Assembly (NCBI GenBank): GCA_020344555.1
Contig: CP070827.1
Location: 3,159,828 to 3,202,443 of the forward strand
Direction: 5' to 3'
DNA length: 42,616 nucleotides
Origin: Phycisphaerales bacterium
Lineage (GTDB): Bacteria > Planctomycetota > Phycisphaerae > UBA1845
The notes beneath the pieces were generated by a model. The model saw nothing but the letters and a program-made list of their open reading frames with translations, was not told the DNA's origin and made no database searches. Position 1 is the stretch's first letter. Every line of letters begins with the position of its first letter. Below are positions 7,222-37,407 of the stretch, in pieces. Made by a program: the position numbers and the translations under genes.

Positions 7222-7327
7222 GCCGGTGCGCACAAAGCCACAATACCTGTCGAAGTCCCGGCCGCATGCGACGGGACAACACCGGTCAGCCTATCGCCAT
7301 GTGACATGATCGTCCGATGCGAGTACC

Positions 7328-8986: not shown

Positions 8987-9090
8987 CACGCCGCACTGCC
9001 CGCCGCGGGTACCACCGTGGTTCGCAGCGCCCTTGCCCTGTTCCTGCAACCACATATAATGCCACGGGTTATCATTAAGAGGCGGCGCGG

Positions 9091-9689: not shown

Positions 9690-9710
9690 CGTAACACTCC
9701 GGTCGATTTG

Positions 9711-22748: not shown

Positions 22749-24589
22749 TCCCGACTACTTCCGGAATTGACATCCAATCTGTCGCCGATGCCATCCTAGG
22801 GTGGACTGCACACGCCGTGGCGTTCGGCACAATCGTGGCGGCCCTGACCTGGCTGGTGATTCGCCTGCTGGGCAAACGAGCGTCACCGACGCTGCAGGTG
22901 GCGTTGTGGTCGCTCGTTCTTGTCAAGTTCCTGGTTCCCGTGGGGCCTGGGTGGTCGCTTTCATTAGCTAGTAGCTACGAGAGACTCTCGATGCGCGCAT
23001 CGAGTCTTCGCGTTGCCGGTGCCGCTGCCGAGACCGGCCCCGTATTCGCGCCCATAGAAACGGCGAACGGAGCGGTGCAGGCGGACAAGATGGTCGCGCC
23101 GCTGTGGTTCAACTGGAAGGCGATTGCGGCAGGAGCGTACGTTCTTACCGTGGTCGGCCTGGGAGCGACGAGGATTCGAGGCTATCGTCTCTTTCGCGCC
23201 CGCTGTCTGGCGTTACCGGCGCCCGATGAATCCACACGCAGGGTGGTGAGCGGTGTCTGCCGCAGACTCGGTGTGCGCCGGCTGCCGTTGATACGGATCA
23301 GCGACGAAGCCCGGGCACCGTTCGTGACCGGGTTTGTCCGTCCTTTATTGGTACTCTCCAGTCGCCAGCTCGTGCGGCCGAACGAGCTGGAGACGGTGAT
23401 CGTGCACGAGGTCACTCATATCCGGCGGGGTGACATGTCCGTGCGTTGTCTTCAATGGGTTGCCGGAACCGTCTTGTTTTTCTGGCCGGTCGTAGCATGG
23501 GTCAACCGTCGAATCGACGGAGCCCGGGAGTTTGCCTGTGACCAATGGGCCCTGCGTCACGGGAAGCTCACAGTGTGCGAATACGCCAGGTGCCTGCTAA
23601 GCGTGCTTCAACCGCTGCAGGTGCCGAGGTTGGTCTATCAGCCCGCATGCATGGCCGGCAGTCCAAGCACGATGGAAAGGAGAATCGACATGATTCTGGC
23701 ATTGTCAAGCCGCCCGGCGCGGCGGCCGATCTGGGGCCTGTTTACGGTGGCGATTCTGGTGGCGTGGGGCGGTTTCACGCTCACCGGTGCGGCAGTCACA
23801 AATGGGGGTCCCGCAACGGGTAAAGCGAAGTATCTCCCAACCGAAAAGGACATGAGAATCCACGCCGACGCGGTGTACGCACGGGTCAACGAATACGCTG
23901 CGGGCGATCTGAACGGCGACGGTCAAACGACCAAGGACGAGTGCTGGAGCTTCGTGACGGCTGTCGTTTTGCAGCAGTCGGACGGGGTGCTAGAGGAGTA
24001 TCCGGACGCCGATCGTAACTCCGACGGCGAGCTGGATCTCGTGGAAGCGTACCAGTTCGTGCGCGGGGATTATGACATCAAAGCGGTGCACAAGTATGCC
24101 CAGTACGAGTTGGAGTCGGCCAAGAAAAGCGGAGACAAGGAACGCTTCAAGGAGCTGAAGGCCGAGGCGTTCGCCCGCGAGATGGAAGCCTGGCACTTCG
24201 TTCTCGACCGACGAGATCGGCTCATGGACATGATGAGCACGGAACCGAGTCTCGAGAAGGTCAAGAAGATCGCGGCGAAAATGGCCAAATTCGAGGAGAA
24301 GAAGAAATCGGCCGAAATGGCCGGAGGCCCGAAGCTCGCATCCGCGATGGCCGACATCTCCAAACTCAAGGCGAAAGCTGAGGACCTAAGAGCGCAGGCG
24401 GCCACTCTTTCCAGTGAAGAGGCCGAGGGCTACTACAATAAGGCTAACTACCTTGAACAGAAGGCTGCGACGCTCAGCGCCAAGTTGACTGGTGCCCTCG
24501 AAGATAACATTGCCAAGCTGGAGGCCGCCGGCAAGCATGACGAGGCCGCCGACCTCAAGGGCAAGCTGGCCGAGCTGCAGGAGCTGTAA
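22745..24589 (+). CDS. BlaR1-like M56 metallopeptidase signal transducer with a non-canonical C-terminal domain
   Basis: N-terminal helices are followed by HEVTHIRRGD (HExxH, codons at 23405-23419) and a further helix IWGLFTVAILVAWGGFTLTGAA. Then come DLNGDGQTTKDECWSFV, DADRNSDGELDLVEAYQFV and a ~165-aa Lys/Glu/Ala-rich heptad-like tail. No SxxK penicillin-binding sensor domain was seen. Confidence 0.85.
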   Translation: MIPTTSGIDIQSVADAILGWTAHAVAFGTIVAALTWLVIRLLGKRASPTLQVALWSLVLVKFLVPVGPGWSLSLASSYERLSMRASSLRVAGAAAETGPVFAPIETANGAVQADKMVAPLWFNWKAIAAGAYVLTVVGLGATRIRGYRLFRARCLALPAPDESTRRVVSGVCRRLGVRRLPLIRISDEARAPFVTGFVRPLLVLSSRQLVRPNELETVIVHEVTHIRRGDMSVRCLQWVAGTVLFFWPVVAWVNRRIDGAREFACDQWALRHGKLTVCEYARCLLSVLQPLQVPRLVYQPACMAGSPSTMERRIDMILALSSRPARRPIWGLFTVAILVAWGGFTLTGAAVTNGGPATGKAKYLPTEKDMRIHADAVYARVNEYAAGDLNGDGQTTKDECWSFVTAVVLQQSDGVLEEYPDADRNSDGELDLVEAYQFVRGDYDIKAVHKYAQYELESAKKSGDKERFKELKAEAFAREMEAWHFVLDRRDRLMDMMSTEPSLEKVKKIAAKMAKFEEKKKSAEMAGGPKLASAMADISKLKAKAEDLRAQAATLSSEEAEGYYNKANYLEQKAATLSAKLTGALEDNIAKLEAAGKHDEAADLKGKLAELQEL

Positions 24590-24672
24590 GCTGGAGCGAT
24601 CGGACCTCGGCGGCGGTTGAACAGGGGACGACTGCCTACGCTACGAATAAGGGTCCGGCGCTCGCAAGAAAC

Positions 24673-24717
24673 AAGCCCCGCCCCAACAAGCCGAAACGCT
24701 TGCGGGGGCGGGGCTTG
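24673..24717. terminator. intrinsic terminator hairpin between convergent genes
   Basis: A 13-bp perfect stem CAAGCCCCGCCCC / GGGGCGGGGCTTG encloses an inner CAAGC/GCTTG stem. On the minus strand it is followed by TTTCTTG, so it best fits termination of 24839..26647 and may work in both directions. Confidence 0.75.
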
Positions 24718-24838
24718 CCAAATGGAGCCGGTCGAATAGGCCCACCGATGTTGAAACAGCGACTAAGAAGAGCACGAGAGCGGCGACCATAGTGGTGCGC
24801 CGTAATAGCATCAGATTACCATCAGGGCCAAAGCCCGA

Positions 24839-26647
24839 TTACGGACCGGCAAGTCCCGGCAGGAAAGCGGCGTAGTCGTCAAGGTCGACATCGCCGTCGT
24901 TGTCAAAGTCGCTCACCAGGCAGCACGGATCGTTGTAGAGCGGCGGGTCGCAGGGCGGTTTGCTGCAGACGCCGGTGACGCAGTTCGCAAAGACGGCGTA
25001 GTCCGTCAGGTCGAGACCCACAGGAGGTGGGGCAGTAAGTTCAAGCTGAATTGTCCCGGGCCCGCTGCGTCCAGCGCACAGGGCGTTGGCGATTCCGGCG
25101 CACGACGAGTCCCACCGCGTCCTGTCACAGCAGGACGGGTCTACTGCGCAAACGGCTGCCTCGCACATAGAGTCACTGCAGCCTGGCGTTTCGTTTTGGA
25201 TGCCGCAGTCACCCTTAAGGAGGGCAGTGTAGCCACCCACACGAATCTTGTAACCCTGTCCTCCAGTCACCAGCAGTTCGGCCTCGGACTGTTGTGCCAG
25301 AGCGTCGCTGCATCCGTCGTCGTCGCATGCCACCGCCGCGTCACTCGGTGGACAGGCAAAGCCCTCATAGATGGCCACCTTTGTATCGAACGGGCTCTCA
25401 CACAAGCGAGCTGTCAACAAGCCGGAACACGGAGCCACATAGTCAAACCAGATATCGCGGTGTACCTGATGATCGCCCAGAGGGAAGGCGCAGCATTGCT
25501 GCGAGGGCAGGCAGTGTTCCTCCGGGCCGTCTGTCATTGCGCCAGTCGTGTCGAAGAAGGTCTCACCCTCGGAGATTGGCAGGCTGTTGATGCAGGCGTC
25601 ATTGACGGGGACTGTGTGGCACGCCTGCGGATCGTCAAGGGGCAAGTCCAGGCAGAATGCAAGATCGGCAACAAGTGCGTCCTGCGGGTCATAGCCGTCG
25701 GGTGAGGTGATACCGTTGCCATCCTGCACGGCTCGCTCGTTGTTTGCCCGCGCCGCCGTCCAATACCACGATCCGGCACCTTGCGTTTCGTTGCTGATCT
25801 CGACCCAGTAGCACATCCCGGCCACGACGGACACCGGCTCGTGGGTGGCCTTGTATTCGTATTCGGGATCCACGTCTGCCAACAACTGGTAGGTCCAAGT
25901 TGGACCTTGAACGGACAGCGTGCTCTCCGCCTGCGAGAACGGGCCGGCGAACAATGTCCCCGGTAGACCGCCGTCATCAATGTAGTAGCGTAGTTCAAAT
26001 GAGTCCGAGACGACACGCGCAGGGTCGCCCGCGTCGTTGTAGTACGTGCCCCACCAGCAGATCTCGCTGATATCGCCGTCGGCCGCTGGCGTGAAATCAT
26101 CCGCAACCACGAACTCGGCGCGATTGCTGGCCAGCGCGTTCCAGCCATCGCGGGCCTGGCAGTTCTCGGGTGCTTGCTGACAGGGGGGTACCGGAGCCGT
26201 CCCGCAGTGAATCGCGAACGTCCCACTGCCTCCGCGGACGAAGGGATGGGTGCCGATCCGAATGAGATAGTCGAGGCCGGCGACTGCGGTGAACGTCACA
26301 CTGGATTGGAACACGCAAGCATCGTCGTCTCCACCAAGCCAAGTCATTGGCGGACATTGACACCCATCATAGACGACAATAATCGTATCCACCGCCGTGC
26401 CGCCGCAGGTATCGATCGTTACATCCCCGTCGCACGGTGCCGTCCAGCAGTACCACACATCGTTGGCGATGGCATCACGTGGATCATCCAACACACCGTC
26501 ACTATCGTCGAAGGCGAACAGACCTTCACCGATGATCGGCGCGGCATCGGCACAAGTGTCGTTAGGAGGGGGGGTCCCCATGACCGAGCACGCGGAAGTG
26601 AGCAGAACACAGACTCTCGAGACCAGGAGGCCAAACATCTCTTGCAT
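24839..26647 (-). CDS. secreted modular Cys-rich protein with C-terminal dockerin/EF-hand-like motif
   Basis: Signal peptide MQEMFGLLVSRVCVLLTSACSVMG. Two modules open with NDxCxxAxPI (NDTCADAAPI, VNDACINSLPI) and end in (I/V)R(I/V)G(T/G) strands. A Cys module CSDSMCEAAVCAVDPSCCDRTRWDSSC follows. The C-terminus reads SDFDNDGDVDLDDYAAFL. Confidence 0.8.
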   Translation of the reverse strand: MQEMFGLLVSRVCVLLTSACSVMGTPPPNDTCADAAPIIGEGLFAFDDSDGVLDDPRDAIANDVWYCWTAPCDGDVTIDTCGGTAVDTIIVVYDGCQCPPMTWLGGDDDACVFQSSVTFTAVAGLDYLIRIGTHPFVRGGSGTFAIHCGTAPVPPCQQAPENCQARDGWNALASNRAEFVVADDFTPAADGDISEICWWGTYYNDAGDPARVVSDSFELRYYIDDGGLPGTLFAGPFSQAESTLSVQGPTWTYQLLADVDPEYEYKATHEPVSVVAGMCYWVEISNETQGAGSWYWTAARANNERAVQDGNGITSPDGYDPQDALVADLAFCLDLPLDDPQACHTVPVNDACINSLPISEGETFFDTTGAMTDGPEEHCLPSQQCCAFPLGDHQVHRDIWFDYVAPCSGLLTARLCESPFDTKVAIYEGFACPPSDAAVACDDDGCSDALAQQSEAELLVTGGQGYKIRVGGYTALLKGDCGIQNETPGCSDSMCEAAVCAVDPSCCDRTRWDSSCAGIANALCAGRSGPGTIQLELTAPPPVGLDLTDYAVFANCVTGVCSKPPCDPPLYNDPCCLVSDFDNDGDVDLDDYAAFLPGLAGP

Positions 26648-26732
26648 CCTTACTCGGATAAAGCTCCCACCGGACTCCCTGTCGATTCACGCAGCGCTGT
26701 TCGCAAGGTCGCCTGGTCTCTTTCGTGCATCC

Positions 26733-27869
26733 CTAGTCCTCCCGGACGCAGCCCTCATAGGAAGGCCGGCCATAGCCTCCATGGTATAGCAGCGTTGGTA
26801 TGGGCTCGTCCGGCAGTGTGTCCTTCTGCCAACCATCGCCGCGTACGATAATGCACCGGTGCTCCTGTTGGAGCGACGGGTCGTCCGGGTATACGAGTTC
26901 AACCCGGTAGTGGGTCGCGTATCCATCTGCATCTTCCGTCCCTTCGATCCACATCTTCCCCACGCCCGTGTGGCCGTCGGCATACACGTGGTTGAACGTC
27001 CAGTTTTTCCCGTGCCACCCTCGGACTGCCTTTGTGGGACCGGGGTCAATACCGAACATGAAGTCGCATGCCTCCCTGCGGCATGCCCACGCCCATCGCC
27101 CGATGTTCTCCTCGAAGTTGATTGTGCGGGCGGGATTCGGCACGCGCGACAAGGGGCGCAGATACGGAGAGTTGCTCCTCATCCAGCCGCCGCTGGATGA
27201 GGCTGTCATGAAAGTGTTTGCCGCGTAACTGTTGCCGAAGTGGTCGTAGGAAGACTGCCGGGCATGCTCAACCCAATCAGGGCAGTGGGCCCCGCCTGGC
27301 GGCCCGTCGTCCGCCGGGCATCGATACGCCGGCAGTTCCAACTTCGTGTCCTTCGTGGCGATGATCCTGTCGAACCAGGTTCCCTGCCAGGCATCTCGGA
27401 ACCCGCCGGGGTAGAGAATCTCATTCATCGGGCGCGTCGCAGGTCCGAAGCCCGCCTTCGTGCCATACTTGCTGTTCAGCGGATCACCGGGACTCCCCCA
27501 CAGGAAGTCGTCCCGCCCGACTCCACTCTTGCCGCCCCATTCGTAGGCGCCAATGAATATTGGGTTGTAGCAAGGAGTGTCACAGGGTTCGCTCGGACAC
27601 TGGCAAAACTGCAACGGGTGGACCGGAATCCCATAGCCGTTGGGGCACCATTCGGCGTACACGCCGCTGGCGATTCCTATGCTGCGGAGACGCGTGTGGC
27701 ATACTGCGTCCTTGGACCGTTGGCGTGCCACCTCGAGCGACGGGGCGACCGCCCCCACAAGCAGTCCGACGATCACGAGCACGACGAGAAGCTCGATCAA
27801 GGTGAAACCGGGCCGCGCAGCCTCGGGCACCCGTCGCTGGAAAAAACGTGTCGTTACCATGATTGCCAC
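26733..27869 (-). CDS. prepilin-type N-terminal cleavage/methylation domain protein (pseudopilin-like, DUF1559-like)
   Basis: The N-terminus ...RPGFTLIELLVVLVIVGLLVGAV is the class III signal. The body is rich in W, Y and G, as in planctomycete DUF1559 proteins. It ends 85 bp upstream of the next minus-strand gene. Confidence 0.85.
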   Translation of the reverse strand: MAIMVTTRFFQRRVPEAARPGFTLIELLVVLVIVGLLVGAVAPSLEVARQRSKDAVCHTRLRSIGIASGVYAEWCPNGYGIPVHPLQFCQCPSEPCDTPCYNPIFIGAYEWGGKSGVGRDDFLWGSPGDPLNSKYGTKAGFGPATRPMNEILYPGGFRDAWQGTWFDRIIATKDTKLELPAYRCPADDGPPGGAHCPDWVEHARQSSYDHFGNSYAANTFMTASSSGGWMRSNSPYLRPLSRVPNPARTINFEENIGRWAWACRREACDFMFGIDPGPTKAVRGWHGKNWTFNHVYADGHTGVGKMWIEGTEDADGYATHYRVELVYPDDPSLQQEHRCIIVRGDGWQKDTLPDEPIPTLLYHGGYGRPSYEGCVRED

Positions 27870-28267
27870 CCTCCTCGATTTTGAGCGTGGCCGTTACATC
27901 GGTCAGGGATTCGACCGGCAAGACGATCGCCACGCCCGCTCCGTGCTCGCAAGGTCGACGTGAAGCACGCGTTTCCACCCAGACATTTCAAGAGCCGAAT
28001 TCTAACCTGTTCCGGCTTCATTCGCAACCTCGGGTTGGCAAGCGTATCGGTTTGCAGGAATAACCGAGCAATCTGAGACGGTATCTCCGACCGGATGGCA
28101 GGTCCGAGAAAGGCGGTATGGGCAGGCGGATACCGGTTTAGTGAGGGTGGCGGCGGTTGCGCTGCGAGCCACTCCACGGCGAGGTCCACCCACCCATGTT
28201 GGCAGGACTTGACCGTGCCACCCAAGACGGGATGGGCCCGCTACGGGGATGAGGTGGGTGGGCACCC

Positions 28268-28296
28268 TTGATCTATGTGAAGCAGCTTGTTATACT
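28268..28296 (+). promoter_or_regulatory. candidate sigma70-type promoter (TTGATC-17-TATACT)
   Basis: Hexamers read directly, about 70 nt upstream of the ATG at 28368 in the ~500-bp divergent intergenic region. Confidence 0.5.
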
Positions 28297-28367
28297 GGCT
28301 CCTTATTCAGGAGCACTTTGAGTGCGCAAGTTGCTGACATAGCCCTAACAAGTGTGGAGCTCTGATC

Positions 28368-29333
28368 ATGAGGAAGAAGCTTCGAGCCGTCACGCTGATC
28401 GAGTTGGTGGTGCTCGCCGGGGTCGTTACGACGGTCTTGTCCCTGTCGTTCGTGAACCTGGCGCGATTGCGCGAATTGAGCAAGCGTCTCGTGTGCAGCG
28501 TCAACCTTAAGGGTATCGGCGCGGTCACTCAGATCTATGCGCAGGATAACGACGACCAGTGGATGGTTCCACCGTTCAGAATGTCTGCGATAGACCGGTG
28601 GGGTATCGACTACGTGAAGAATGATGAGACCTTCATCTTTCCCCCGCGCGACGAAGGTGAGGTCGGCTGGAACCGGCTGTGGGAAAGCACCTCGGAGACA
28701 CCGTCCTTCCCAAGCAAGGGCAGCACGCAAGTTTCGGTGACGCGGGCATTCTGGATGCTCGTTCGTTCTAGGGACGTGCACGTCAAGCAGTTTGTCTGCC
28801 CCAGCAACTATGACACCCCCGATGAGTCGGAGGCCCTCTCTCTCTACTACGACTTCACGGGATATACGAACATTAGCTACGGTTATCAAGTTCCGTTCGG
28901 CCCAAGAGCCACGCGGCCTCATGTCGGAGCCGATCCCGGCCGCATTCAGGCGGCGGACAAGGGCCCATTTTACCTGCGGACATACTATCCGGATTGGACT
29001 CTCCCAGATCGCAGCCCTATCGATCTGGAGGACCCGGCGATGGCTTGGCGTCCGTTCAACTCGCCCAATCACGGTGGACTCGGCAACGGGGAAGGGCAGA
29101 ACTGCTTGTTCCCCGATGCAAGTGTGTGCTTCCACTCGATACCGGCCGTGGGTGTAGACAACGATAACATTTATACGGTCATGACCGAAGAGTGGGGTAC
29201 GCTCCAAGGCTTCAACCGCATCCACGGGGACACGGTTCACACGTCTCCTATCACATACCCCTATCCGGGGCAGAACGTCTTTGGCCAGGGCCCGAACATG
29301 TTCGCTTCTACCGACACGTTGATATATCCGTAG
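28368..29333 (+). CDS. prepilin-type N-terminal cleavage/methylation domain protein (pseudopilin-like, DUF1559-like)
   Basis: The N-terminus MRKKLRAVTLIELVVLAGVVTTVLSL is followed by the conserved CxxNLKxIG block (CSVNLKGIGAV), which is common in DUF1559 proteins. Confidence 0.85.
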   Translation: MRKKLRAVTLIELVVLAGVVTTVLSLSFVNLARLRELSKRLVCSVNLKGIGAVTQIYAQDNDDQWMVPPFRMSAIDRWGIDYVKNDETFIFPPRDEGEVGWNRLWESTSETPSFPSKGSTQVSVTRAFWMLVRSRDVHVKQFVCPSNYDTPDESEALSLYYDFTGYTNISYGYQVPFGPRATRPHVGADPGRIQAADKGPFYLRTYYPDWTLPDRSPIDLEDPAMAWRPFNSPNHGGLGNGEGQNCLFPDASVCFHSIPAVGVDNDNIYTVMTEEWGTLQGFNRIHGDTVHTSPITYPYPGQNVFGQGPNMFASTDTLIYP

Positions 29334-29408
29334 CCCGATCATGCCTCGAACCATGCAAGAACAAGCCAGGCGGCAGCATCCCAGGCGGTGTGGGAAGGAG
29401 CGTCGGCC

Positions 29409-32400
29409 ATGAGGTGCAAACTGATCCAGGCCGCTCTTATCGGGCTGTTGTCCAGGGGCCAGGGCCTGGCGGGGGTGCTTTTAGCGGGTACGGTCGCCTT
29501 TGCTCACGGACAATCGTCTTCAGCATTCGCTCCGCAGGCAGCGCTGGATAGGGGTAGCAGCTCCAGCCATCCGGTCATCCCTGATGGTGGGATCTGGACG
29601 GAGCCACCCGTCCTGCTCTCTCCCGATGCTCCCGTGCACCGCGTCGTTGTCCGCGGGGGGCCCGGTGACGGTACCGTGGTCAGTAGGGTGGCCAGCAGGC
29701 TGGAGACGACCTGCGAGGGAGACCCAAGTGCGGTCTACTGCAATACGTTGGGTTCCACAACGTTCGGGCCGCCAGACAACCTGGCAGGCGCAGGGATAGG
29801 GGATGATATCGCCCTGGCGAGTGTCGGTGGATGCATCCTGGACCGCTACGTGATTCGAGTTACAGGCGATAAGGATCGCGACGGCTCCGGTGTGGCTCTT
29901 GGGGCCTACACGGTCAACTTTGGTCTTTACGAGATGTGTCCGGGTGCCGGTGCTGACCATCCGATCGAAGGAACCGCAGATCAGGTCACGGTTCCTGCTG
30001 AGGAAGCCGGCATCATTAAGGAAATCGTATTCGAGCCACCAGGCCGGGTGGAACTGCCACCCAGTCTGTACCTGGGCGTAAGCTTCAGCCGAGAGAGATG
30101 CGGCGTGGTTATGGGCTCCCCGGCCACGTTGGGCTACTCCGCTGATCGGTTCGACTTTCCAGGGTCTCCTTGTTCCTCGACACTCGGTGGTTTTCCCGAA
30201 GCTCCCCATGCCAGCTTCTATGCCGAGATTTACACCGAGGGTGACTGCCCGGATGCGTTCGTGGGCTACAAGAACACCAACCACGCCGGCGACTACTACA
30301 CCCCAGGTATTCGAGTGTGGTTTGCGGATGATGTTCGATTGGGTGTTGCCGAATGCAACATGGTGGCTTACGAGATCGCTCACAAAGGTGATGGCATCAT
30401 CGGCGTTGACCTTCGGAGCTTTCTCAGCGACACCGATCCCAGCCGCGGCGGTCTGATTCCCGGCACTCAACTGGACTGCTTCTCCAGCGGGAGCGACGTG
30501 CAGGTTTGCCGCAAGGAGTTCGACACGCCGATCCCGCTTCCCGAATCAAGTTTCTATGTCGCCTACCAGGCCAACAGCAGCTCCGTCGGTCCTCTTGTCA
30601 CCTGTAAGCAGGCAAGCGTCGGAAGCACAGAGGACTTGTGGGCCGTTTACGACGGTGGCCAGTGGCGGCTCGCTGATTTCGGCGACACGTGTTATTCCGG
30701 TTTTGAGATAACAATCACGTGTGAGGGTCCCCCACCCGCAGGCGCCTGCTGCGACATGATTCTGACTGACCACGCGGGTGAGTCCGTGTGCCGCGAGCTG
30801 CCTCAGATGAATTGCGCATTCCCTCAACTGTGGCAGGAAGGAGCACTATGCGAGTCGGCTTGCCTCGGCGGCGAGAGAGATGGGCAGCCGTGCACGCGGC
30901 AGGCCGATTGCCCGGAAGGCGACTGCCCCGGGCCGTTTGAGCACCCCTGCGGGCTCTCCGCCTGTTGCACGCCGGACCTGGACTGTTTTGATCTGACTGA
31001 GAACGAGTGCCATGACCTGCTTCCCGCTCCCGATTTGCGAATCTACCAGCGAGGACAGTATTGTGGGGACGAGTGCCAACGCTGTCCTACTGATGCCTGC
31101 CTCGGGCGGGCGGGGAATTGCACTGCAGCCTCGCAAGGTCTTTGTATCGGTGGAAGCCAGGAGGGGGAGCCGTGCGACTTCGGCTTGCCCTGCCGCGAGT
31201 CCCTGTGTTGTATCGGCGGAGGTACATGTACGGGCGAGCCGGGCTGTGGCGACCAGATTTGCTGCACCGATGTGTGCGCCGTTGACGAGTTCTGCTGTAC
31301 GGTTCATTGGGATGAGGTATGTGCGTCGCTTGCCGAGTCCGTCTGCGTGTGCAGCTACGGATCAAACGACGAGTGTTTCAGTCCGCTCCCCAACCGGGGA
31401 GCCTACTTGCTCAACGTGCCCAGCGTCACGCAGATCGATTTGACAGACGCCACCGAAGACGCCGAAGATCCCGGCTTCTGTTGCCATTTGCAGGAACCGG
31501 GCGCGCAGGGTGTTGGCACTCGATGGTACAAATTCGTGGCCCCGTCACCCGTAGGGGCGGCGGGCGAACCTCCGTCGGTCAAGTTGAGCCTGCGCAACAT
31601 CAGCGGTTCGTCGGATCGCCAGGCCGGCGACTCGCTGATGGCCGTGTTTACGGCATCCGATCCGGATCGAGGGCTGTGCTCTGACCTCTCCGTATGCAGC
31701 GTATCCGCCCAGGATTGCGCCGATGAGTCACCCTGCATGTTGGACGAAGAGACGGCCTGCGAGACGCTCATTACTACTGCCTGCAACGATGATGCGACGG
31801 CCTCGGGCGCGACCGCTCAGGCATTACAGTCAGGGAACTCCGAAGTGTGTGTCCCGGCGCTTGTACCGGGTCATACGTACTATGTCATGGTCGCAGCGAA
31901 GACCGAGGTGAATCGAGGTTATTATACGCTGACGGTCACACATCATTGCTCAGTTACGCCGTCCGACACTGTGCCTGATTGCGACGCCGATGGGCTGCCG
32001 GATGTGTGTAAGCTGCCGCCGCTCGGATCCAGTACAGACTGTAATGCAAACAGCATTCCTGACGAGTGCGATGTGGTGGTGGCCAACAACTGCTGTGAGA
32101 CCGGCCACGGAGCCGGTTGCAGCCATCCGGATATTGAAGAGTGTGTTTGTGAATACGATCCCTACTGCTGTGACACAGAGTGGATTGGTTCTTGCGTTTA
32201 CCTGGTGAACCACTACGGTTGCGGTGACTGCACTGCGCCTGCAAGCAACGATTGCAACGCCAATGAAGTTCCTGACGAATGTGATCTGGCCGACGGCACC
32301 TTGCACGACGCAGATGGCAATGGTATTGCCGACGAATGCCAACCAGGGAAACTCGCCTCCGTCAAATGCTGCATTTCTGAAAAGGATCTCATCAGGATCG

Positions 32401-33110
32401 GTTTATGCTTGTCCGGCCCGGGCGATACAAACATCCCGTCCGCCTGTGGTTCCATAGGAACCTGTGTTCTGGGGTTTGCTGAACAGGGGCTTATCATTGA
32501 GGAGGTGTGCGACCCGGAGGACCCGGAGATACCGGACGAACCGAGAGCAGTGTGCATATCGTGGGCTGCGCGGGAGGCGTCGATCAAGCAGGAGTGCGTG
32601 GCATCCCCCAACACGGATTTCAGCCTTTTTGAAACGTTGGACGCCGATCAGGATGGCGACTTGGACCTGCGGGACATGGCCGCGTTCCAGCGCACCTATG
32701 AGTCAGTACCGAAGGAGGTCCAAAGCGGCGCAAGGCTGGTGTTCGTCGAGTGCTGCGTTCCGGCAGCCGGCATGGGCGTTGGACAGAAGCGGGTCTCCGG
32801 TGCGGACGTTGCCAAGGACGCGGTCGCAGCCGGCTCCCAACCGGTTTGCACCCTTGGCTTTTCCGGGATGATCGAGCCCGGCGATTATCTGTATGAATTG
32901 TGTCGTCCCGGGACCACGCCCAAGCCCCCAGAAGGCTCGACCTGCGTCTCATGGAGCGCCGAAGATGTCCCGATTGCGTTCCTCTGCGAAGGGGCCGGCG
33001 TCTGCGAGTACAGATGCCCCACCGGGGATGACGGGAGCACCGACCCCGAAGGATGTTTCGCAGATTTTGCCGGTCTGGAAGGTCCGTCCGAAGCCCTATC
33101 ACCAGAGTAG
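29409..33110 (+). CDS. very large secreted modular Cys-rich protein with CNANxxPDECD repeats and a dockerin/EF-hand-like motif
   Basis: ORF from GTG 29388. The ATG at 29409 has AAGGAG 8 nt upstream. Signal-like MRCKLIQAALIGLLS... Motifs include GACCD, two copies of the VCxxDxxCCxxxW module, DCNANSIPDECD and DCNANEVPDECD, LDADQDGDLDLRDMAAFQ, and an NDECFSPLP module like those in 24839..26647. Confidence 0.85.
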   Translation: MRCKLIQAALIGLLSRGQGLAGVLLAGTVAFAHGQSSSAFAPQAALDRGSSSSHPVIPDGGIWTEPPVLLSPDAPVHRVVVRGGPGDGTVVSRVASRLETTCEGDPSAVYCNTLGSTTFGPPDNLAGAGIGDDIALASVGGCILDRYVIRVTGDKDRDGSGVALGAYTVNFGLYEMCPGAGADHPIEGTADQVTVPAEEAGIIKEIVFEPPGRVELPPSLYLGVSFSRERCGVVMGSPATLGYSADRFDFPGSPCSSTLGGFPEAPHASFYAEIYTEGDCPDAFVGYKNTNHAGDYYTPGIRVWFADDVRLGVAECNMVAYEIAHKGDGIIGVDLRSFLSDTDPSRGGLIPGTQLDCFSSGSDVQVCRKEFDTPIPLPESSFYVAYQANSSSVGPLVTCKQASVGSTEDLWAVYDGGQWRLADFGDTCYSGFEITITCEGPPPAGACCDMILTDHAGESVCRELPQMNCAFPQLWQEGALCESACLGGERDGQPCTRQADCPEGDCPGPFEHPCGLSACCTPDLDCFDLTENECHDLLPAPDLRIYQRGQYCGDECQRCPTDACLGRAGNCTAASQGLCIGGSQEGEPCDFGLPCRESLCCIGGGTCTGEPGCGDQICCTDVCAVDEFCCTVHWDEVCASLAESVCVCSYGSNDECFSPLPNRGAYLLNVPSVTQIDLTDATEDAEDPGFCCHLQEPGAQGVGTRWYKFVAPSPVGAAGEPPSVKLSLRNISGSSDRQAGDSLMAVFTASDPDRGLCSDLSVCSVSAQDCADESPCMLDEETACETLITTACNDDATASGATAQALQSGNSEVCVPALVPGHTYYVMVAAKTEVNRGYYTLTVTHHCSVTPSDTVPDCDADGLPDVCKLPPLGSSTDCNANSIPDECDVVVANNCCETGHGAGCSHPDIEECVCEYDPYCCDTEWIGSCVYLVNHYGCGDCTAPASNDCNANEVPDECDLADGTLHDADGNGIADECQPGKLASVKCCISEKDLIRIGLCLSGPGDTNIPSACGSIGTCVLGFAEQGLIIEEVCDPEDPEIPDEPRAVCISWAAREASIKQECVASPNTDFSLFETLDADQDGDLDLRDMAAFQRTYESVPKEVQSGARLVFVECCVPAAGMGVGQKRVSGADVAKDAVAAGSQPVCTLGFSGMIEPGDYLYELCRPGTTPKPPEGSTCVSWSAEDVPIAFLCEGAGVCEYRCPTGDDGSTDPEGCFADFAGLEGPSEALSPE

Positions 33111-33385
33111 CAGGCGGCGGATCGCTCCGACGGCGCCTCAACCCGGCTCGCCACAGGGGCCGTGCTCCGAGGGTGCTGACGCGGCCGGCCCTTCTCACGC
33201 CTAACGCCCGGTCAGTAGGCGGGTCTAAACCTCACGATTGCGAATATTTGGCCGCCTGATCCGAATCCACGGATACGTGGCTTTTTGCCTGGTTGATGTT
33301 TCTATGCGTTTGCCCCTCGGCGTAGGCCTCTTGAGAGAGGCAACGCCGACCGCATCGTCACCCTTAGCTTATTGGAGGCTTCAAG

Positions 33386-35650
33386 ATGTACTCGATGTCA
33401 GTCGTCAAGCACTTATTGGCCGGATTCCTGATTCTGCTGGTCGGCAATACGGATGTCGTCCCGGCCGGTTCGGCACGGAGCACCTTCTATCAGGCCTACT
33501 ACACCGAGCAGGCTGAGGGTGATTGGGCTGCCGCGGCTGAGCTGTACGAGCAGGTGGCCGCTGACCGCCGTGCGGATGCCGGCCTTCGTTCGCAGGCCAA
33601 GGCACGGCTGGGGGCCTGTCGCGAAGAGCTGGCCAGCACCGATTTCGCCCGGCTCATGCCCCCGGAAGCGTGGGCCTATGTGGAGATCAAGCGCCCCGGC
33701 GACCAACTGGTGAAGCTGCTCGAGCAACTCGGCCTGTTGGCACAAGCCGGTCAAGTCCCGGCCGAGGGCGAGAGACGTGTGGCCATCAGCCCCGCCCTGA
33801 TAAAGGGTCTCAGCATCGGTGGCGCGGCCGCTGCCATAACCGGGTTCAATATTCCGACCCAGACTCCGTACGGTGTCCTGGTGTTTCACCCTGGTGACCT
33901 TGAGGTCGTTCGAGGCCTGATCGAGACCGGGCTGCCGGTCGGCGGGCAGGTGGTTGAACCGATTGGAGGATTCGCCACCTATAACGTTGAGGGACAGGCC
34001 TTTGTCACGCTTACGTCTCGACTCGTGGTCGTCAGCACGCAGCGCAGTCAGATCCAGGAAGTCATCGATCGCCTCAGCGGCGCCAAGGAGCTTTCACTTG
34101 CCAGCAGCGGCGTCATGGGCGACGTGCTCAAGAACCGCGACGACTCACTGTTACTCTTTTTCGTCAATGCCAAGGCTTTCATGCCCCATCTCAAAGGCAT
34201 GATGGGCGTCGGTGCCATGGCCAACCATGAGCTGGCGATGGCCCAGGCCGTTCTGGACATCGAGAGCTTCCACTCGTTGATGGGCAATCTCGGTGTCAGT
34301 GACGACGGGCTTTTCATCGATTTCGCTTTACGTTTGGACGAGGGCCATCACAACCTGGTATATAACTTCCTCCGCACACCGGCCATCAACCCGGAGACGC
34401 TCAAATCCGTGCCCGAAGGCGTGGCCGGCGTATTCGTGGGTGCGCTGAACGAAAGCGTCTCCCGCTATGGCACTGCCTCGTCCCGCACCACTGATACACC
34501 GCCGATCGTAACAGCCCTGGATCTGGGCCGCGAGGTGTTCGCCAATATCACCACCTTCGCGGTCTTCGCTCTGCCGCCGGACGGTTCTCCGAGCAAGAGC
34601 GGCCCGCCTATACCGGATGTGGCCGCGGTGATCACCGTCAACGATCCGGCAAAGTCCGAGGCCCTTTGGACGCAAGCGCTCAGCCTGGCCGCCCTGGCAA
34701 CCGGGGTGCCTGCAGCAGCGGGATCATCCGAAGAGATTGAGGGCGTCACTGTGCACGGCTATCGATTGCCCGAGAACATCACGATCTACTTCGCCACCTC
34801 GGGCAACGATGTGCTCATTGCCACCAGCAAGAGAGCCATGGTTGACACCCTCGGGGCCAGGGGGAAAGGCAGCTCGATTCTCAACGATGAGGCATTCGCA
34901 GCAAGCGTGGGGCGGCTCACCTCGGACAGCACACAGGCAATCTTCGCCCACGCCGGCCGCTGCGCCGCCATCGCCAAGCAGTTCATGTCCGAGCGTGATC
35001 TGGCCGAGGCCGGGCCGGTCTTTGAAATCCTTTCCGACACTTCCCTCACTGTTGTGGAGGACCATTCCGGCGAGGTGTACCGCGTGTCGACTATGGTGAG
35101 CGGAATTCCCGATATCGGCGACTTCGTGGCCAAGATGCTCACCGCCGAGTACCACAAAAAGGAAGTTGACAAGCGTCTCACCGGGGCGATGCGCACAGGC
35201 AGGTGGGATGAGGCCTTGGGAACCGTCGACGCCCAACTGCGCGACGATCCAGGTAGTCGCAAGCTGATGGAGGCCAAGTTCAAAATCCTGGCAACCGGGA
35301 AGAAGGATCATGATGCGGCCCTGGCCGTCGCCGAGAAAGTCTTCGAGAAAATTCGCGATGACGCCAAGACCCTAAACACCTACGCGTGGCGCTTGCTCAC
35401 CAAAGACCAGTATGGCGACGCCTACAACAAGCTGGCCCTGAAGTTCTCCGAGAGGTCCAACGAACTCACTGACTACAAGAACTGGATGTACGTGGACACA
35501 CTGGCCCTTGCCAAATTCAAGACCGGGGACGCGCCAAGCGCCGTCGAGCTGGAGAAAAAGGCCATCGAGCTGTGCGGCGACTGCTGGGGCCTGAAGGACA
35601 TGAAGAAAGCGGTGACCCGGTTCGAGACTGGCGCAGGCGAAGAGCACTAA
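33386..35650 (+). CDS. secreted hypothetical protein with TPR-like ends
   Basis: 754-aa ORF. A GGAGG-containing RBS sits upstream. Signal/anchor VVKHLLAGFLILLVG. It has an N-terminal TPR-like helix pair (YYTEQAEGDWAAAAELYEQVAA) and a C-terminal helical-repeat region. No family was assigned. Confidence 0.7.
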   Translation: MYSMSVVKHLLAGFLILLVGNTDVVPAGSARSTFYQAYYTEQAEGDWAAAAELYEQVAADRRADAGLRSQAKARLGACREELASTDFARLMPPEAWAYVEIKRPGDQLVKLLEQLGLLAQAGQVPAEGERRVAISPALIKGLSIGGAAAAITGFNIPTQTPYGVLVFHPGDLEVVRGLIETGLPVGGQVVEPIGGFATYNVEGQAFVTLTSRLVVVSTQRSQIQEVIDRLSGAKELSLASSGVMGDVLKNRDDSLLLFFVNAKAFMPHLKGMMGVGAMANHELAMAQAVLDIESFHSLMGNLGVSDDGLFIDFALRLDEGHHNLVYNFLRTPAINPETLKSVPEGVAGVFVGALNESVSRYGTASSRTTDTPPIVTALDLGREVFANITTFAVFALPPDGSPSKSGPPIPDVAAVITVNDPAKSEALWTQALSLAALATGVPAAAGSSEEIEGVTVHGYRLPENITIYFATSGNDVLIATSKRAMVDTLGARGKGSSILNDEAFAASVGRLTSDSTQAIFAHAGRCAAIAKQFMSERDLAEAGPVFEILSDTSLTVVEDHSGEVYRVSTMVSGIPDIGDFVAKMLTAEYHKKEVDKRLTGAMRTGRWDEALGTVDAQLRDDPGSRKLMEAKFKILATGKKDHDAALAVAEKVFEKIRDDAKTLNTYAWRLLTKDQYGDAYNKLALKFSERSNELTDYKNWMYVDTLALAKFKTGDAPSAVELEKKAIELCGDCWGLKDMKKAVTRFETGAGEEH

Positions 35651-36576: not shown

Positions 36577-37407
36577 GTGCGACTTTCCACTTGGACGACA
36601 CGCATGGCCTTGGCCATCCTGGCCAGTCTAGCTGGGGCGCTCGGCGAAACGTCGGCGCTTGCACAACCTATCCTGTATGCTTCGGACAGCCTCACGGGTT
36701 CGCTTTATACTCTTGACACGGCGAATGCATCCGCCACGCTCGTGGGCCCTTTCGTTGTCACCCAGATTATGGCTGGGCTGGGGTACGACGCCCAGCGAGA
36801 CATTCTCTTCGGTACGTCAACCGAGACAAACGACCTCTACTCCATCAATCGCTCAACAGGGTTAGCGACGTGGATAGGAGATCTTGAGGTCGAACTCATG
36901 CACGCCTTGGAATATGACGTTGCATCCGACACGTTGTTCGGTGCCTTCGGAACGTCAGCAGGCGACGGACTCTACAACATCGACACTTCCACAGGAGCGG
37001 CCACGCTGATCGGCCACATAGGCTTCTTTCACTCAGACCACGCGAATACGGTGCACGGGCTTGCTGCTCATCCTGACACGGGCGTGTTGTACGGCGCCGT
37101 TAGCGGGCCGGCGCTCGATTGGGGTGCCCTAATCGAGATCAACAAGACCACGGGCCAGGGGAGCTTGATCGGCGAGTTTACACAACACATCGGGGGCCTG
37201 GCTTTTCATCCCGAGACCAACGTCCTGTTTGCCATGGACAATTTGGCGGATGAGTTGTACACGATCGACATTACTACCGCCCAGACCACGCTTATCGGCC
37301 CTACCGGATTGGGGAAAGCTCCTGGGCTGGCGTTCACGCCCGAACCCACCAGCCTCTCGCTCCTTGCTCTCGGCGGTCTGCTTGCCATCTGCCGACGACG
37401 CCGGTAG
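36577..37407 (+). CDS. PEP-CTERM sorting-domain protein with repeated LYxxD beta-strand motifs
   Basis: GTG start with GGAGGA 7 nt upstream. Signal MALAILASLAGALGETSALA. Repeats include LYTLD, LYSIN, LYNID and LYTID. The C-terminus PEPTSLSLLALGGLLAICRRRR is the canonical PEP-CTERM layout: PEP, a hydrophobic helix, then an Arg cluster. Confidence 0.88.
   Translation: MRLSTWTTRMALAILASLAGALGETSALAQPILYASDSLTGSLYTLDTANASATLVGPFVVTQIMAGLGYDAQRDILFGTSTETNDLYSINRSTGLATWIGDLEVELMHALEYDVASDTLFGAFGTSAGDGLYNIDTSTGAATLIGHIGFFHSDHANTVHGLAAHPDTGVLYGAVSGPALDWGALIEINKTTGQGSLIGEFTQHIGGLAFHPETNVLFAMDNLADELYTIDITTAQTTLIGPTGLGKAPGLAFTPEPTSLSLLALGGLLAICRRRR

What the first reader, a model, noticed from the sequence alone, without database searches (positions are those of the whole stretch)
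24839..35650. Mirror-image divergent operons, each a pseudopilin-like gene followed by a modular Cys-rich dockerin-bearing secreted protein
Seen, on the minus strand: 26733..27869 (prepilin-type N-terminus), an 85-bp gap, 24839..26647 (602-aa Cys-rich), then a terminator. Seen, on the plus strand: a promoter at 28268, 28368..29333 (prepilin-type N-terminus), a 75-bp gap, 29409..33110 (~1230-aa Cys-rich), then 33386..35650 (754-aa secreted protein). The two operons share a ~500-bp divergent control region. The two Cys-rich proteins share modules: domains that open with NDxCxxxxPI, the VCxxDxxCCxxxW knot, and a terminal or subterminal DxDxDGDxDLxDxAAF loop. Established: DUF1559-like pseudopilin genes are hugely expanded in Planctomycetota and mostly uncharacterised. 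Inference: each pseudopilin may be dedicated to its neighbouring giant Cys-rich protein, for instance for display or tethering on a pilus-like fibre or for export through a T2SS-like route. That would amount to a duplicated two-component surface system. I know of no described function for this pairing.
Basis: partly seen in the sequence, partly recalled or inferred. Interest (0 to 1): 0.72.

Follow-up and report, generated by a model that had tools for sequence, protein, structure and literature searches.

The report
Paired pilin-like and secreted protein genes
In a group of little-studied aquatic bacteria (Phycisphaerae), a specialised pilus-type protein gene is almost always followed by a gene for one particular cysteine-rich secreted protein; this points to an undescribed pilus-linked surface or export system, whose function is still only inferred.

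Summary
The gene layout is real at the stated coordinates. On the minus strand, pilin-like A1 (26733-27869) precedes Cys-rich B1 (24839-26647), followed by a strong terminator hairpin. On the plus strand, pilin-like A2 (28368-29333) precedes Cys-rich B2 (29409-33110).

The A1-B1 pairing is far from chance.
- In 78 loci fetched through A1 relatives (0.99 Mb), all 14 B1-family genes lie directly downstream of an A1-family gene (p about 1e-19).
- The 16 B1-linked A1 copies group together at the base of a tree of 90 copies.
- 5 of 6 loci fetched through B1 itself also have A1 upstream.
- Start/stop overlaps and a conserved sigma-70-like promoter indicate an operon.

A2-B2 is a second, different cassette seen only in close relatives. 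There the partner is a small 240-380 aa protein. The window's B2 is a fusion carrying about 985 extra N-terminal residues.

Three labels need correcting. Neither pilin family meets DUF1559 or H-X9-DG profiles. The "dockerin" is a dockerin-like EF-hand pair that Pfam does not recognise and that many unrelated secreted proteins also carry. Gene C (33386-35650) is not part of the unit.

The best mechanism is a dedicated minor pilin that presents or exports its neighbour, like CofB-CofJ or PilK-PilY1. This is inferred, not shown.

The parts
26733..27869 (-). A1: a large type-IV-pilin-like ('pseudopilin') protein. It has a class III signal peptide, a roughly 50-residue alpha-1 helix and a head of about 300 aa with an unknown fold. 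The likely true start is ATG 27860 (375 aa).
   Evidence: - ORF present.
- Pfam N_methyl and TIGR02532 hits.
- The family profile matches PDB type IV pilins only over alpha-1, E 1e-9.
- AF2 model has pLDDT 71.5 with a helix at residues 24-74.
- Foldseek finds no PDB analogue of the head, best E 4.2.
- It belongs to the B1-linked group of a large Phycisphaerae family.
- A GGAGG ribosome-binding site lies before ATG 27860.
24839..26647 (-). B1: a Sec-secreted Cys-rich protein (6.3% Cys). Its order of parts is signal peptide, GBD/PPC-like beta-sandwich, DUF7901, a second GBD-like domain, the CxxDxxCC..W knot, then a C-terminal dockerin-like EF-hand module ending in ...LxGP. The likely start is ATG 26638 (599 aa).
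   Evidence: - ORF present.
- Pfam DUF7901 (E 6.7e-11) and GBD_T9SS_assoc (E 4.2e-7).
- 83 homologues, all from Planctomycetota/Phycisphaerae MAGs.
- The family alignment shows a conserved architecture.
- The C-terminal module weakly resembles the EF-hand pair of CIB1, E 0.3.
24671..24718 (-). Intrinsic-terminator-like hairpin after B1: a long GC-rich stem followed by TTCTT.
   Evidence: RNA fold of 24640-24845 on the minus strand gives z = -5.6 against shuffles. The simple scan found its inner stem at 24698-24679.
27999..28027 (-). Conserved sigma-70-like promoter of the A1-B1 operon: TTGCGA-N17-TAGAAT, about 130 nt upstream of the A1 start.
   Evidence: Consensus scan. The same -35/-10 pair with N17 spacing is conserved in L001 (TTGCGA/TATAGT), L004 (TTGCCA/TATAAT) and L005 (TTGCCA/TATGAT) within an otherwise poorly conserved intergenic alignment.
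27870..28367 (.). Divergent intergenic control region of 498 bp between A1 and A2.
   Evidence: Sequence read directly. The 28268 site is a 9-of-12 match, not above chance, and lies in sequence absent from the related loci.
28368..29333 (+). A2: a second pilin-like protein (321 aa) from a different large Phycisphaerae family. It has a diverged N-terminus (RA|VTLIELVVLAGVV...), and its H-X9-DG-like motif is degenerate (H-X14-DA).
   Evidence: - ORF present.
- No Pfam or NCBIfam hit.
- 1616 homologues, most with N_methyl.
- It falls in a 14-member clade in which every member has a diverged helix.
- That clade includes the A2-like genes next to A1-B1 in L001, L004 and L005.
29409..32348 (+). B2 N-terminal part (about 985 aa). 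It holds a signal peptide, uncharacterised domains, Cys-rich linkers, two knot modules, one GBD-like domain and DCNANxxPDECD repeats. This is a lineage-specific addition.
   Evidence: - No Pfam, NCBIfam or PDB hit.
- Absent from the orthologous partners in L001, L004 and L005.
- Homologous (E 1e-180) to part of a 2644-aa protein in L023.
- Knot copies at B2 residues 611-655 and 899-945.
32349..33110 (+). B2C: the conserved core partner of A2 (B2 residues 988-1240). It consists of 'V(K/E)CCIS...' Cys-rich modules with a DADQDGDLDLRDMAAF loop and a ...FxGLxGPS tail.
   Evidence: phmmer matches only this part of B2 to L001 820-1965 (E 2e-124), L005 5816-6769 and L004 575-1390 (E about 1e-77). Each of these lies directly downstream of an A2-like gene.
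33267..33280 (+). Terminator-like hairpin with a T-run between B2 and the 754-aa gene.
   Evidence: Consensus scan. It is weak, and the number of such sites is not above the shuffled expectation.
33386..35650 (+). The 754-aa DUF3352/TPR protein. It is a neighbour and not part of the conserved unit.
   Evidence: Pfam DUF3352 (E 8e-11) and TPR. No counterpart lies after the B2C orthologues in L001, L004 or L005.

Best explanation
What is shown.
- The window holds two back-to-back copies of one design: a specialised type-IV-pilin-like gene followed by a gene for a Sec-secreted, disulfide-rich protein. The pairs are A1 then B1, and A2 then B2.
- A1-B1 is an old, conserved two-gene operon of Phycisphaerae.
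- A2-B2C is a younger companion cassette found only in the window's close relatives.

What is inferred.
- Each pilin-like protein is a low-abundance 'minor' pilin dedicated to its neighbour.
- After Sec export and oxidative folding in the periplasm, B would bind the head of A.
- When A is incorporated at or near the tip of a type IV filament (a pilus or a T2SS-like pseudopilus) built by machinery encoded elsewhere, B would be carried through the outer membrane.
- B would then either be held on the fibre as a binding protein or be released.
- B's galactose-binding-like beta-sandwiches and dockerin-like Ca2+ module suggest binding to polysaccharides or particles.
- Known systems that work this way are CofB-CofJ, TcpB-TcpF and PilK-PilY1/PilC.
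For: Pairing.
- 14 of 14 B1-family genes in 78 A1-centred loci lie directly downstream of A1 (p = 1.6e-19).
- All 16 B1-linked A1 copies group together in an NJ tree of 90 copies, while 68 other copies are unlinked.
- 5 of 6 B1-centred loci have A1 upstream, with unrelated flanks.
- Tandem A1-B1-A1-B1 occurs in L037, and a second cassette copy (A2-like, B2C-like, A1 and the contig-truncated start of a B1-like gene) lies in one MAG (L001 and L005).

Operon.
- Gaps run from -4 to +94 bp, with ATGA-type overlaps in L013 and L037.
- The promoter is conserved in four loci, and a terminator hairpin follows B1.

Pilin nature.
- N_methyl and TIGR02532 hits, PDB pilin matches over alpha-1, and a 51-residue helix in the AF2 model.

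Specialisation.
- In the linked group, alpha-1 residues 1-30 are 44% identical pairwise, against 88% in generic copies. The heads are equally conserved (64% against 66%).
- Two linked copies have E5 replaced by D.
- This fits a minor or tip role rather than a bulk fibre subunit. GspK-type tip pilins lack E5 (my own knowledge).
- The A2-linked clade shows the same helix divergence.

B proteins are secreted. They have signal peptides followed by a conserved 'PPND' start and contain 4-7% Cys.

Precedents for a minor pilin with a dedicated secreted or adhesin partner: PMC6048534, PMC9565799, PMC10120004, PMC13533445.
Against: - No pilus or T2SS assembly genes, major pilin or prepilin peptidase lie in the window or next to the cassette in any locus. 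The known analogues sit inside pilus operons.
- No physical interaction has been shown or modelled.
- The head of A1 has no structural analogue in the PDB, so no binding function can be read from it.
- One B1 homologue (P0041, locus L097) has no A1 neighbour, and in L095/L096 the A1 gene is split by a frameshift. B can therefore exist without an intact A.
- The C-terminal dockerin-like module is shared with many proteins that have no pilin neighbour, so it cannot be the partner-specific element.
- The tree is NJ without bootstrap, genes were called with a crude ORF method, and all data come from MAGs.
Confidence: 0.45

Rival explanations
1. Co-regulated but not physically coupled. A and B are made together because both serve the same envelope process, such as capture or uptake of a polymer, but B is not bound, displayed or exported by A.
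For: Operon structure alone does not prove contact. There is no machinery in the neighbourhood. One B1 homologue is unpaired and one A1 is frameshifted. Generic A1 and A2 paralogues sit in many unrelated contexts.
Against: The linkage has been kept strictly across B1 identities down to about 36-40% and across changing flanks, and the linked pilins form their own group. The cassette is duplicated as a unit (L037; L001 and L005). This is more typical of interacting partners than of loose co-regulation.
Confidence: 0.28
2. Private membrane-anchored helper. A is not polymerised into a fibre. It stays anchored in the inner membrane by its N-terminal helix and acts in the periplasm as a dedicated chaperone, holdase or retention factor for the disulfide-rich B protein.
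For: - The alpha-1 helix of the linked groups has lost the near-invariance of the generic copies, and E5 is D in two members, so the constraint for fibre packing may be relaxed.
- B proteins have 4-7.5% Cys and would need assisted oxidative folding.
- No pilus genes are nearby.
Against: Most linked copies keep the full G/A-F-T-L-I-E motif with E5 and the long alpha-1. The head has no thioredoxin-type CxxC motif and no chaperone-like profile or fold match.
Confidence: 0.15
3. Chance adjacency caused by the high copy number of pilin-like genes.
For: The A1 and A2 families are large (1648 and 1616 hits), with several paralogues per genome, two of each... at least two A1 and one A2 paralogue in the window's own genome.
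Against: 14 of 14 B1-family genes directly downstream of A1 gives p = 1.6e-19 even within A1-enriched loci. The linked copies form one group. B1-centred look-ups give the same result.
Confidence: 0.01

Closest known systems
Type IVb pilus minor pilin with a dedicated secreted partner: CofB-CofJ (ETEC CFA/III) and TcpB-TcpF (Vibrio cholerae TCP). Sources: PMC6048534, PMC9565799, PMC10120004.
   Same: A large pilin-like protein with a bulky head is encoded in one operon with a Sec-exported soluble protein. That protein depends on the pilin for export or display. This is the same logic proposed here for A1-B1 and A2-B2C.
   Different: - Those pairs lie inside complete pilus operons with the major pilin and ATPases; the cassettes here stand alone.
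- There is no sequence or fold similarity: PDB hits cover alpha-1 only and Foldseek finds nothing.
- The partners here are Cys-rich beta-sandwich proteins with a dockerin-like C-terminus.
- The interaction is untested.
PilK/GspK-family minor pilin with a PilY1/PilC tip adhesin, joined by C-terminal beta-strand addition. Source: PMC13533445.
   Same: A pilin-like protein of about 300-400 aa is paired with a large secreted adhesin-like protein that has a conserved extreme C-terminus and Ca2+-binding loops. The B1 family ends in a nearly invariant ...LTGP, and B2C ends in ...FxGLxGPS.
   Different: No PilY1 beta-propeller or any PilY1/PilC profile is found in B1 or B2. There are no PilI/PilJ-like genes nearby. 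Whether the B C-terminus adds a strand to A is unknown.
Modular type IV pilins, such as Streptococcus sanguinis PilB and PilC. Source: PMC8179133.
   Same: A pilin module carries a large functional head, giving the fibre an extra function.
   Different: In modular pilins the functional module is fused to the pilin. Here the putative functional protein is a separate, co-transcribed gene, and the pilin head has no recognisable module.
Planctomycetal DUF1559 / H-X9-DG prepilin-type proteins (Pfam PF07596, TIGR04294).
   Same: These also have a prepilin-type N-terminus, a head of about 300 aa, many paralogues per genome and occurrence in Planctomycetota. The motif remnants are 'WHGKNWTFNHVYADGH' in A1 and 'NHGG...QNCLFPDASV' in A2.
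   Different: No PF07596 hit at E up to 10 for A1 or A2, or at E up to 1 for ten relatives. TIGR04294 reaches only 12.8 bits (cut-off 19) in one A2 relative. A1 and A2 are best described as two separate Phycisphaerae families.
Dockerin modules of cellulosomal and planctomycetal secreted proteins (Pfam PF00404).
   Same: The C-terminal position and two helix-loop segments with DxDxDGxxD Ca2+ loops. Other ORFs in the same loci show both loops intact.
   Different: Pfam Dockerin_1 is not met in B1 or B2. The first loop is degenerate in B1, and the module contains conserved cysteines. No cohesin-like partner is known.

Membership tests
Type IV pilin / pseudopilin superfamily (type IV filament subunits) | Class III signal peptide with the G/A|F-T-L-I-E motif, including E5 (Pfam PF07963, TIGR02532). 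| tested here: met
   A1 scores 28 bits for PF07963 (cut-off 21.2) and 29.2 bits for TIGR02532 (cut-off 16.3). A2 has no profile hit, but it carries 'RA|VTLIELVV' with E5, aligns to A1, and most of its relatives meet PF07963.
Type IV pilin / pseudopilin superfamily (type IV filament subunits) | A long N-terminal alpha-1 helix of about 50 residues followed by a globular head. | tested here: met
   The AF2 model has a helix at residues 24-74. The A1 profile matches solved pilins (Geobacter PilA-N, PilA, GspG) over alpha-1 only.
Type IV pilin / pseudopilin superfamily (type IV filament subunits) | Processing by a prepilin peptidase and assembly by a PilB/GspE-type machine. | not testable with these tools
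   No such genes lie in the 42.6-kb window. The rest of the 5.25-Mb genome could not be read.
DUF1559 (Pfam PF07596, SBP_bac_10) | A match to the PF07596 profile. | tested here: not met
   No hit at E up to 10 for A1 or A2, or at E up to 1 for ten family members.
H-X9-DG prepilin-associated domain (TIGR04294) | A C-terminal H-X9-DG motif reaching the model cut-off of 19 bits. | tested here: not met
   No hit for A1 or A2. The best result is 12.8 bits in A2 relative P0232. By eye the spacing is H-X11-DG in A1 and H-X14-DA in A2. JGI does name some A2 relatives H-X9-DG proteins.
Dockerin (Pfam PF00404) | Two tandem Ca2+-binding loop-helix segments that match the profile. | tested here: not met
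   No PF00404 hit in B1 or B2 at E up to 10. One B1 relative (P0051) carries PF00404. B1 has one canonical loop and one degenerate loop. The module is dockerin-like only.
GBD_T9SS_assoc (PF23759) and DUF7901 (PF25470) beta-sandwich domains | Profile matches above the gathering score. | tested here: met
   B1 scores 43 bits for DUF7901 (cut-off 24) and 30.7 bits for GBD_T9SS_assoc (cut-off 27). B2 has no hit.
T4bP minor pilin with secreted partner (CofB-CofJ, TcpB-TcpF) | The pair is encoded inside a pilus biogenesis operon together with the major pilin and the ATPase. | tested here: not met
   Flanking genes are unrelated housekeeping or other genes in the window and in all related loci.
T4bP minor pilin with secreted partner (CofB-CofJ, TcpB-TcpF) | The secreted partner binds the minor pilin head and needs it for export. 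| not testable with these tools
PilY1/PilC tip adhesins | A C-terminal beta-propeller (PilY1/PilC domain). | tested here: not met
   No such Pfam or NCBIfam hit in B1 or B2.
Verru_Chthon cassette (TIGR02596-TIGR02600) | Full-length matches to cassette proteins A-D. | tested here: not met
   Only the N-terminal roughly 30 residues match TIGR02596 and TIGR02599, far below cut-off (18.6 bits against 70; 12-14 bits against 256).

The most novel reading that the evidence does not exclude
The multi-copy A1 and A2 pilin-like families may be the missing receptors for the dockerin-like C-terminal modules carried by many Phycisphaerae secreted proteins. Type IV filaments would then act as scaffolds that display, or export, a changeable set of Cys-rich binding and degrading proteins. 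That would be a pilus-based counterpart of the cellulosome. The A1-B1 and A2-B2C cassettes would be hard-wired pairs within such a system.
Probability: 0.08. Interest if true: 0.85.

Novelty: new variant of a known kind. Interest (0 to 1): 0.55.

Why it matters
Planctomycetota carry very large numbers of prepilin-type genes whose function is unknown. This finding gives one concrete, testable handle. A defined group of pilin-like proteins is locked to one defined family of secreted binding proteins across many genomes.

If the pilin presents or exports its neighbour, two things would follow. The minor-pilin-plus-cargo principle, known so far from a few pathogens, would extend to free-living polymer-degrading bacteria. 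It would also suggest what at least some of the expanded planctomycetal pilin-like genes are for. The pair is small enough for complex prediction, heterologous expression and pull-downs.

Tried and rejected
- **First AF2 run of A1.** With a 22-sequence alignment it failed (pLDDT 44). A 134-sequence alignment of the A1 and A2 families gave pLDDT 71.5.
- **Foldseek against the PDB.** The better model found nothing (best E 4.2), so no function could be read from the fold.
- **Sequence searches of the PDB.** These gave only pilin alpha-1 matches for A1, a non-significant EF-hand match for the B1 C-terminus, and nothing for B2.
- **Metagenome scan with the B1 alignment.** It was swamped by the promiscuous DxDxDGD pattern and returned only 8 loci. 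These held distant module-sharing proteins without pilin neighbours.
- **Look-ups of the window's own proteins.** Exact look-ups found no record.
- **DUF1559, H-X9-DG, dockerin and Verru_Chthon membership.** All were tested and not met.
- **Literature.** Searches for DUF1559, H-X9-DG and Phycisphaerae pseudopilins found no functional study.
- **Lipoprotein reading of B1.** Rejected, because the family N-termini have no conserved lipobox cysteine.
- **Gene C as a third operon member.** Rejected, because it is not conserved and a terminator-like site precedes it.
- **Mirror-tree or residue co-evolution of A1 and B1.** Not attempted. About 18 pairs that also share the species phylogeny would not be informative.

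Full report
**1. Observation**

- A1: 26733-27869, minus strand, 378 aa.
- B1: 24839-26647, minus strand, 602 aa, 6.3% Cys.
- A2: 28368-29333, plus strand, 321 aa.
- B2: 29388/29409-33110, plus strand, 1240/1233 aa, 7.5% Cys.
- A 754-aa gene: 33386-35650, plus strand.

Ribosome-binding sites favour ATG 27860 for A1, ATG 26638 for B1 and ATG 29409 for B2. The first two match the database gene calls P0084 (375 aa) and P0001 (599 aa).

A1 carries a bona fide prepilin-type N-terminus (PF07963 and TIGR02532). A2 gets no profile hit at all. Even so, its N-terminus aligns to A1's (E 3e-7), the A1-family HMM detects it (E 6.5e-9), and most of its 1616 relatives carry PF07963.

B1 contains Pfam DUF7901 and GBD_T9SS_assoc domains. 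B2 matches nothing in Pfam, NCBIfam or the PDB.

The modules shared by B1 and B2 have uneven support:
- The roughly 38-aa 'CxxDxxCC..W' knot is significant (E 9e-7; hhalign probability 92%, E 5.7e-7). B2 has two copies.
- The DxDxDGDxDL loop is a short shared motif (E 0.018).
- The 'NDxC' domain similarity to B2 is not significant.

A strong hairpin followed by TTCTT lies after B1 at 24671-24718 on the minus strand (z = -5.6). The plus-strand promoter-like site at 28268 is a 9-of-12 match, and such matches are no commoner here than in shuffles.

**2. Source and families**

The window comes from a 5.25-Mb contig of a Phycisphaerales MAG. This follows from the contig length and source names attached to paralogues P0099, P0113 and P0208.

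A1 belongs to a large and strikingly conserved family:
- At least 1648 hits; the best 120 clusters are all 54-70% identical to A1.
- Mean column identity of 58% in a 22-sequence alignment.
- 76 clusters at 50% identity with E below 1e-30 among 1.84 billion representatives.

All 78 genomic loci recovered are Phycisphaerae or Planctomycetota MAGs, with several paralogues per genome.

A2 belongs to a second family of similar size (1616 hits). It is only about 20% identical to A1.

Neither family, nor ten of their members, matches DUF1559 (PF07596). H-X9-DG (TIGR04294) reaches 12.8 bits against a cut-off of 19 in one A2 relative only. 'DUF1559-like' is therefore a resemblance and not a membership.

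**3. The A1-B1 pairing is conserved and specific**

I called ORFs in all fetched loci and scanned them with HMMs of the A1 and B1 families.

- *A1-centred loci.* The 78 loci hold 0.99 Mb, about 900 gene slots, 88 A1-family genes and 14 B1-family genes. All 14 B1-family genes lie directly downstream of an A1-family gene on the same strand. Random placement gives p = 1.6e-19, even though these loci are enriched for A1.
- *Spacing.* Gaps run from -4 to +94 bp, with overlapping stop/start codons in L013 and in both pairs of L037.
- *Tree.* In an NJ tree of 90 A1-family genes, the 16 B1-linked copies group together at the root. The only other members of that part of the tree are the first copy of an A1-A1-B1 array (L024) and L023, which has a B1-like gene placed divergently. 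The 68 remaining copies are never B1-linked.
- *B1-centred loci.* Going the other way, loci fetched through B1 homologues of 36-66% identity have an A1-family gene directly upstream in 5 of 6 cases, with different flanking genes: L001, L002, L093, L099 and L095. In L095/L096 the A1 gene is split by a frameshift in two assemblies. L097 (P0041) is unpaired.
- *Distant relatives.* More distant proteins that merely share modules with B1 (L081-L085) have no pilin neighbour.

**4. Operon signals**

The intergenic regions upstream of A1 in the window, L001, L004 and L005 align poorly. The exceptions are a sigma-70-like promoter with constant N17 spacing and the ribosome-binding site. The promoter reads:
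- Window: TTGCGA-N17-TAGAAT at 28027-27999, minus strand.
- L001: TTGCGA/TATAGT.
- L004: TTGCCA/TATAAT.
- L005: TTGCCA/TATGAT.

Together with the short gaps and the terminator hairpin, this makes co-transcription of A1 and B1 very likely. It has not been measured.

**5. The A2-B2 side**

A2-like genes with the same diverged N-terminal helix sit divergently upstream of A1-B1 in L001 (two tandem copies), L004 and L005. Within the A2 family they form a 14-member clade in which every member has a diverged helix.

In those loci the next gene is a small Cys-rich secreted protein of 240-380 aa. It is homologous only to residues 988-1240 of the window's B2 (E 2e-124 to 1e-77; sequences).

The N-terminal 985 residues of B2 are therefore a lineage-specific fusion. 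They are homologous (E 1e-180) to part of a 2644-aa protein in L023.

Canonical A2 relatives sit in an unrelated, conserved context of DUF362, A2 and NUDIX genes. L001 and L005 are two contigs of one MAG, so that genome carries the cassette twice: complete in L001, and in L005 with the B1-like gene cut off by the contig end.

The two cassettes are not mirror duplicates of each other. They are two different pilin-partner pairs that travel together in one sub-lineage. The 754-aa DUF3352/TPR gene is absent from all related loci, and a terminator-like site precedes it.

**6. What the proteins look like**

*A1.* The A1 profile matches solved pilins only over alpha-1. An AF2 model built on a 134-sequence alignment of the A1 and A2 families reached pLDDT 71.5 and pTM 0.69. 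It shows a 51-residue helix and a mixed head. Foldseek finds no analogue of this head in the PDB (best E 4.2).

The B1-linked A1 copies differ from generic ones in one informative way. Their first 30 mature residues are only 44% identical pairwise, against 88% in generic copies. The heads are equally conserved (64% against 66%). Two linked copies have D instead of E5. The A2-linked clade shows the same relaxation. I read this as specialisation away from the role of a bulk fibre subunit. That reading is inference.

*B1.* The family has a conserved order of parts: signal peptide, 'PPNDxC' GBD domain, DUF7901, second GBD-like domain, an optional or duplicated knot, then a C-terminal module ending in ...LTGP.

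That C-terminal module has the pattern L.DFA.F..C.TGP...C..DFD.DGDVDL.DF..F...GP. It also occurs at the C-terminus of many unrelated secreted ORFs in the same loci, often with both Ca2+ loops intact. It weakly resembles an EF-hand pair (E 0.3). It is dockerin-like but does not meet Pfam Dockerin_1. It is also not specific to pilin-adjacent genes, so it cannot by itself encode partner specificity.

**7. Mechanism**

The best-supported reading is a dedicated minor-pilin-plus-cargo or adhesin cassette. B would be exported by Sec and folded oxidatively. It would then bind the head of its cognate pilin-like protein and be carried to, or through, the outer membrane on a type IV filament built by machinery encoded elsewhere.

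The precedents are:
- CofB-CofJ (PMC6048534).
- TcpB-TcpF (PMC9565799, PMC10120004).
- PilK-PilY1/PilC, where the last roughly 10 residues of the adhesin complete the sheet of the minor pilin (PMC13533445).

What is shown: conserved, clade-specific linkage, operon signals, the pilin nature of A, and the secreted, domain-rich nature of B. What is inferred: physical contact, incorporation into a filament, and display or export.

Evidence against the model:
- No machinery genes lie nearby in any locus.
- One B1 is unpaired and one A1 is frameshifted.
- The A head gives no structural clue.

Rivals are loose co-regulation without contact, and a membrane-anchored private periplasmic helper for a disulfide-rich client. 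Chance adjacency is excluded.

**8. Novelty and limits**

I found no paper describing these families or the pairing. The principle of a minor pilin with a dedicated partner is known. Several things appear to be new:
- A stand-alone cassette that lies outside any pilus operon.
- Pilin heads with no detectable structural analogue in the PDB (a Foldseek search with a medium-confidence model).
- The partner family itself.
- The setting in multi-paralogue pilin families of Phycisphaerae.

I therefore rate it a new variant of a known kind.

Limits of the analysis:
- All sequences come from MAGs.
- Genes were called with a simple ORF rule.
- The tree is NJ without support values.
- Only the best 80 A1 loci were sampled.
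- The source genome outside the window was not available.

Noticed in passing
window 22314-24589 (+): A BlaI/BlaR1-like pair: a Penicillinase_R repressor (144 aa) and a Peptidase_M56 sensor (614 aa). The sensor's C-terminal half is not a penicillin-binding domain. It carries EF-hand-like loops (DLNGDGQTTKDE, DADRNSDGELDL) and a long Lys/Glu-rich coiled-coil tail. It converges on the B1 terminator.
   Followed up: no
L023 3-842 (-), 954-2180 (+), 2187-10121 (-): An A1-family gene sister to the linked group is flanked by a divergently placed B1-like gene and, convergently, by a 2644-aa Cys-rich giant. The giant's middle part is homologous (E 1e-180) to the N-terminal part of the window's B2. This suggests that modules are exchanged between pilin-adjacent proteins.
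   Followed up: partly
L037 6309-13375 and L024 7563-13042: Local amplification of the cassette: a tandem A1-B1-A1-B1 array in L037 and an A1-A1-B1 array in L024, both from MAG OFTM243.
   Followed up: partly
L095 and L096, 4780-5932 (+): The A1-family gene upstream of B1 homologue P0039 is split into two ORFs by the same frameshift in two independent assemblies (GCA_016200265.1 and GCA_016178855.1). It could be a pseudogene, a programmed frameshift or a shared assembly error.
   Followed up: no
A2-family proteins P0261, P0263, P0265, P0269, P0278, P0283, P0287, P0293, P0298, P0299, P0304, P0319 (also P0243, P0254, P0268): A further set of A2-family members (whether they form one clade was not tested) has a diverged helix and D instead of E5 (for example 'AFSLVDLLVTAAVAVLL'). 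P0261 and P0293 each have a longest contig of 19,312 bp, so they may lie on the same contig.
   Followed up: no
L089-L092, about 6400-9500: Canonical A2-family genes sit in a conserved DUF362, A2, NUDIX arrangement followed by QueF, in several samples. This is a different fixed context for a pilin-like gene.
   Followed up: no
window 36577-37407 (+): A DUF4394/DUF6923 repeat protein with a PEP-CTERM sorting signal. The organism therefore probably also uses an exosortase-type surface sorting system.
   Followed up: no
window 9708-12815 (+) and 2634-5348 (-): A 1035-aa protein with a Wzy_C O-antigen-ligase domain, and a 904-aa protein with repeated Rax2/DUF6087-like matches. Both are unusually large envelope-related genes in otherwise housekeeping surroundings (PurH, two M16 peptidases, Lgt).
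   Followed up: no
L030 4487-9074 and L036 6830-10260: Tandem arrays of three generic A1-family genes with near-identical alpha-1 helices. This is the pattern expected for subunits that co-assemble.
   Followed up: no
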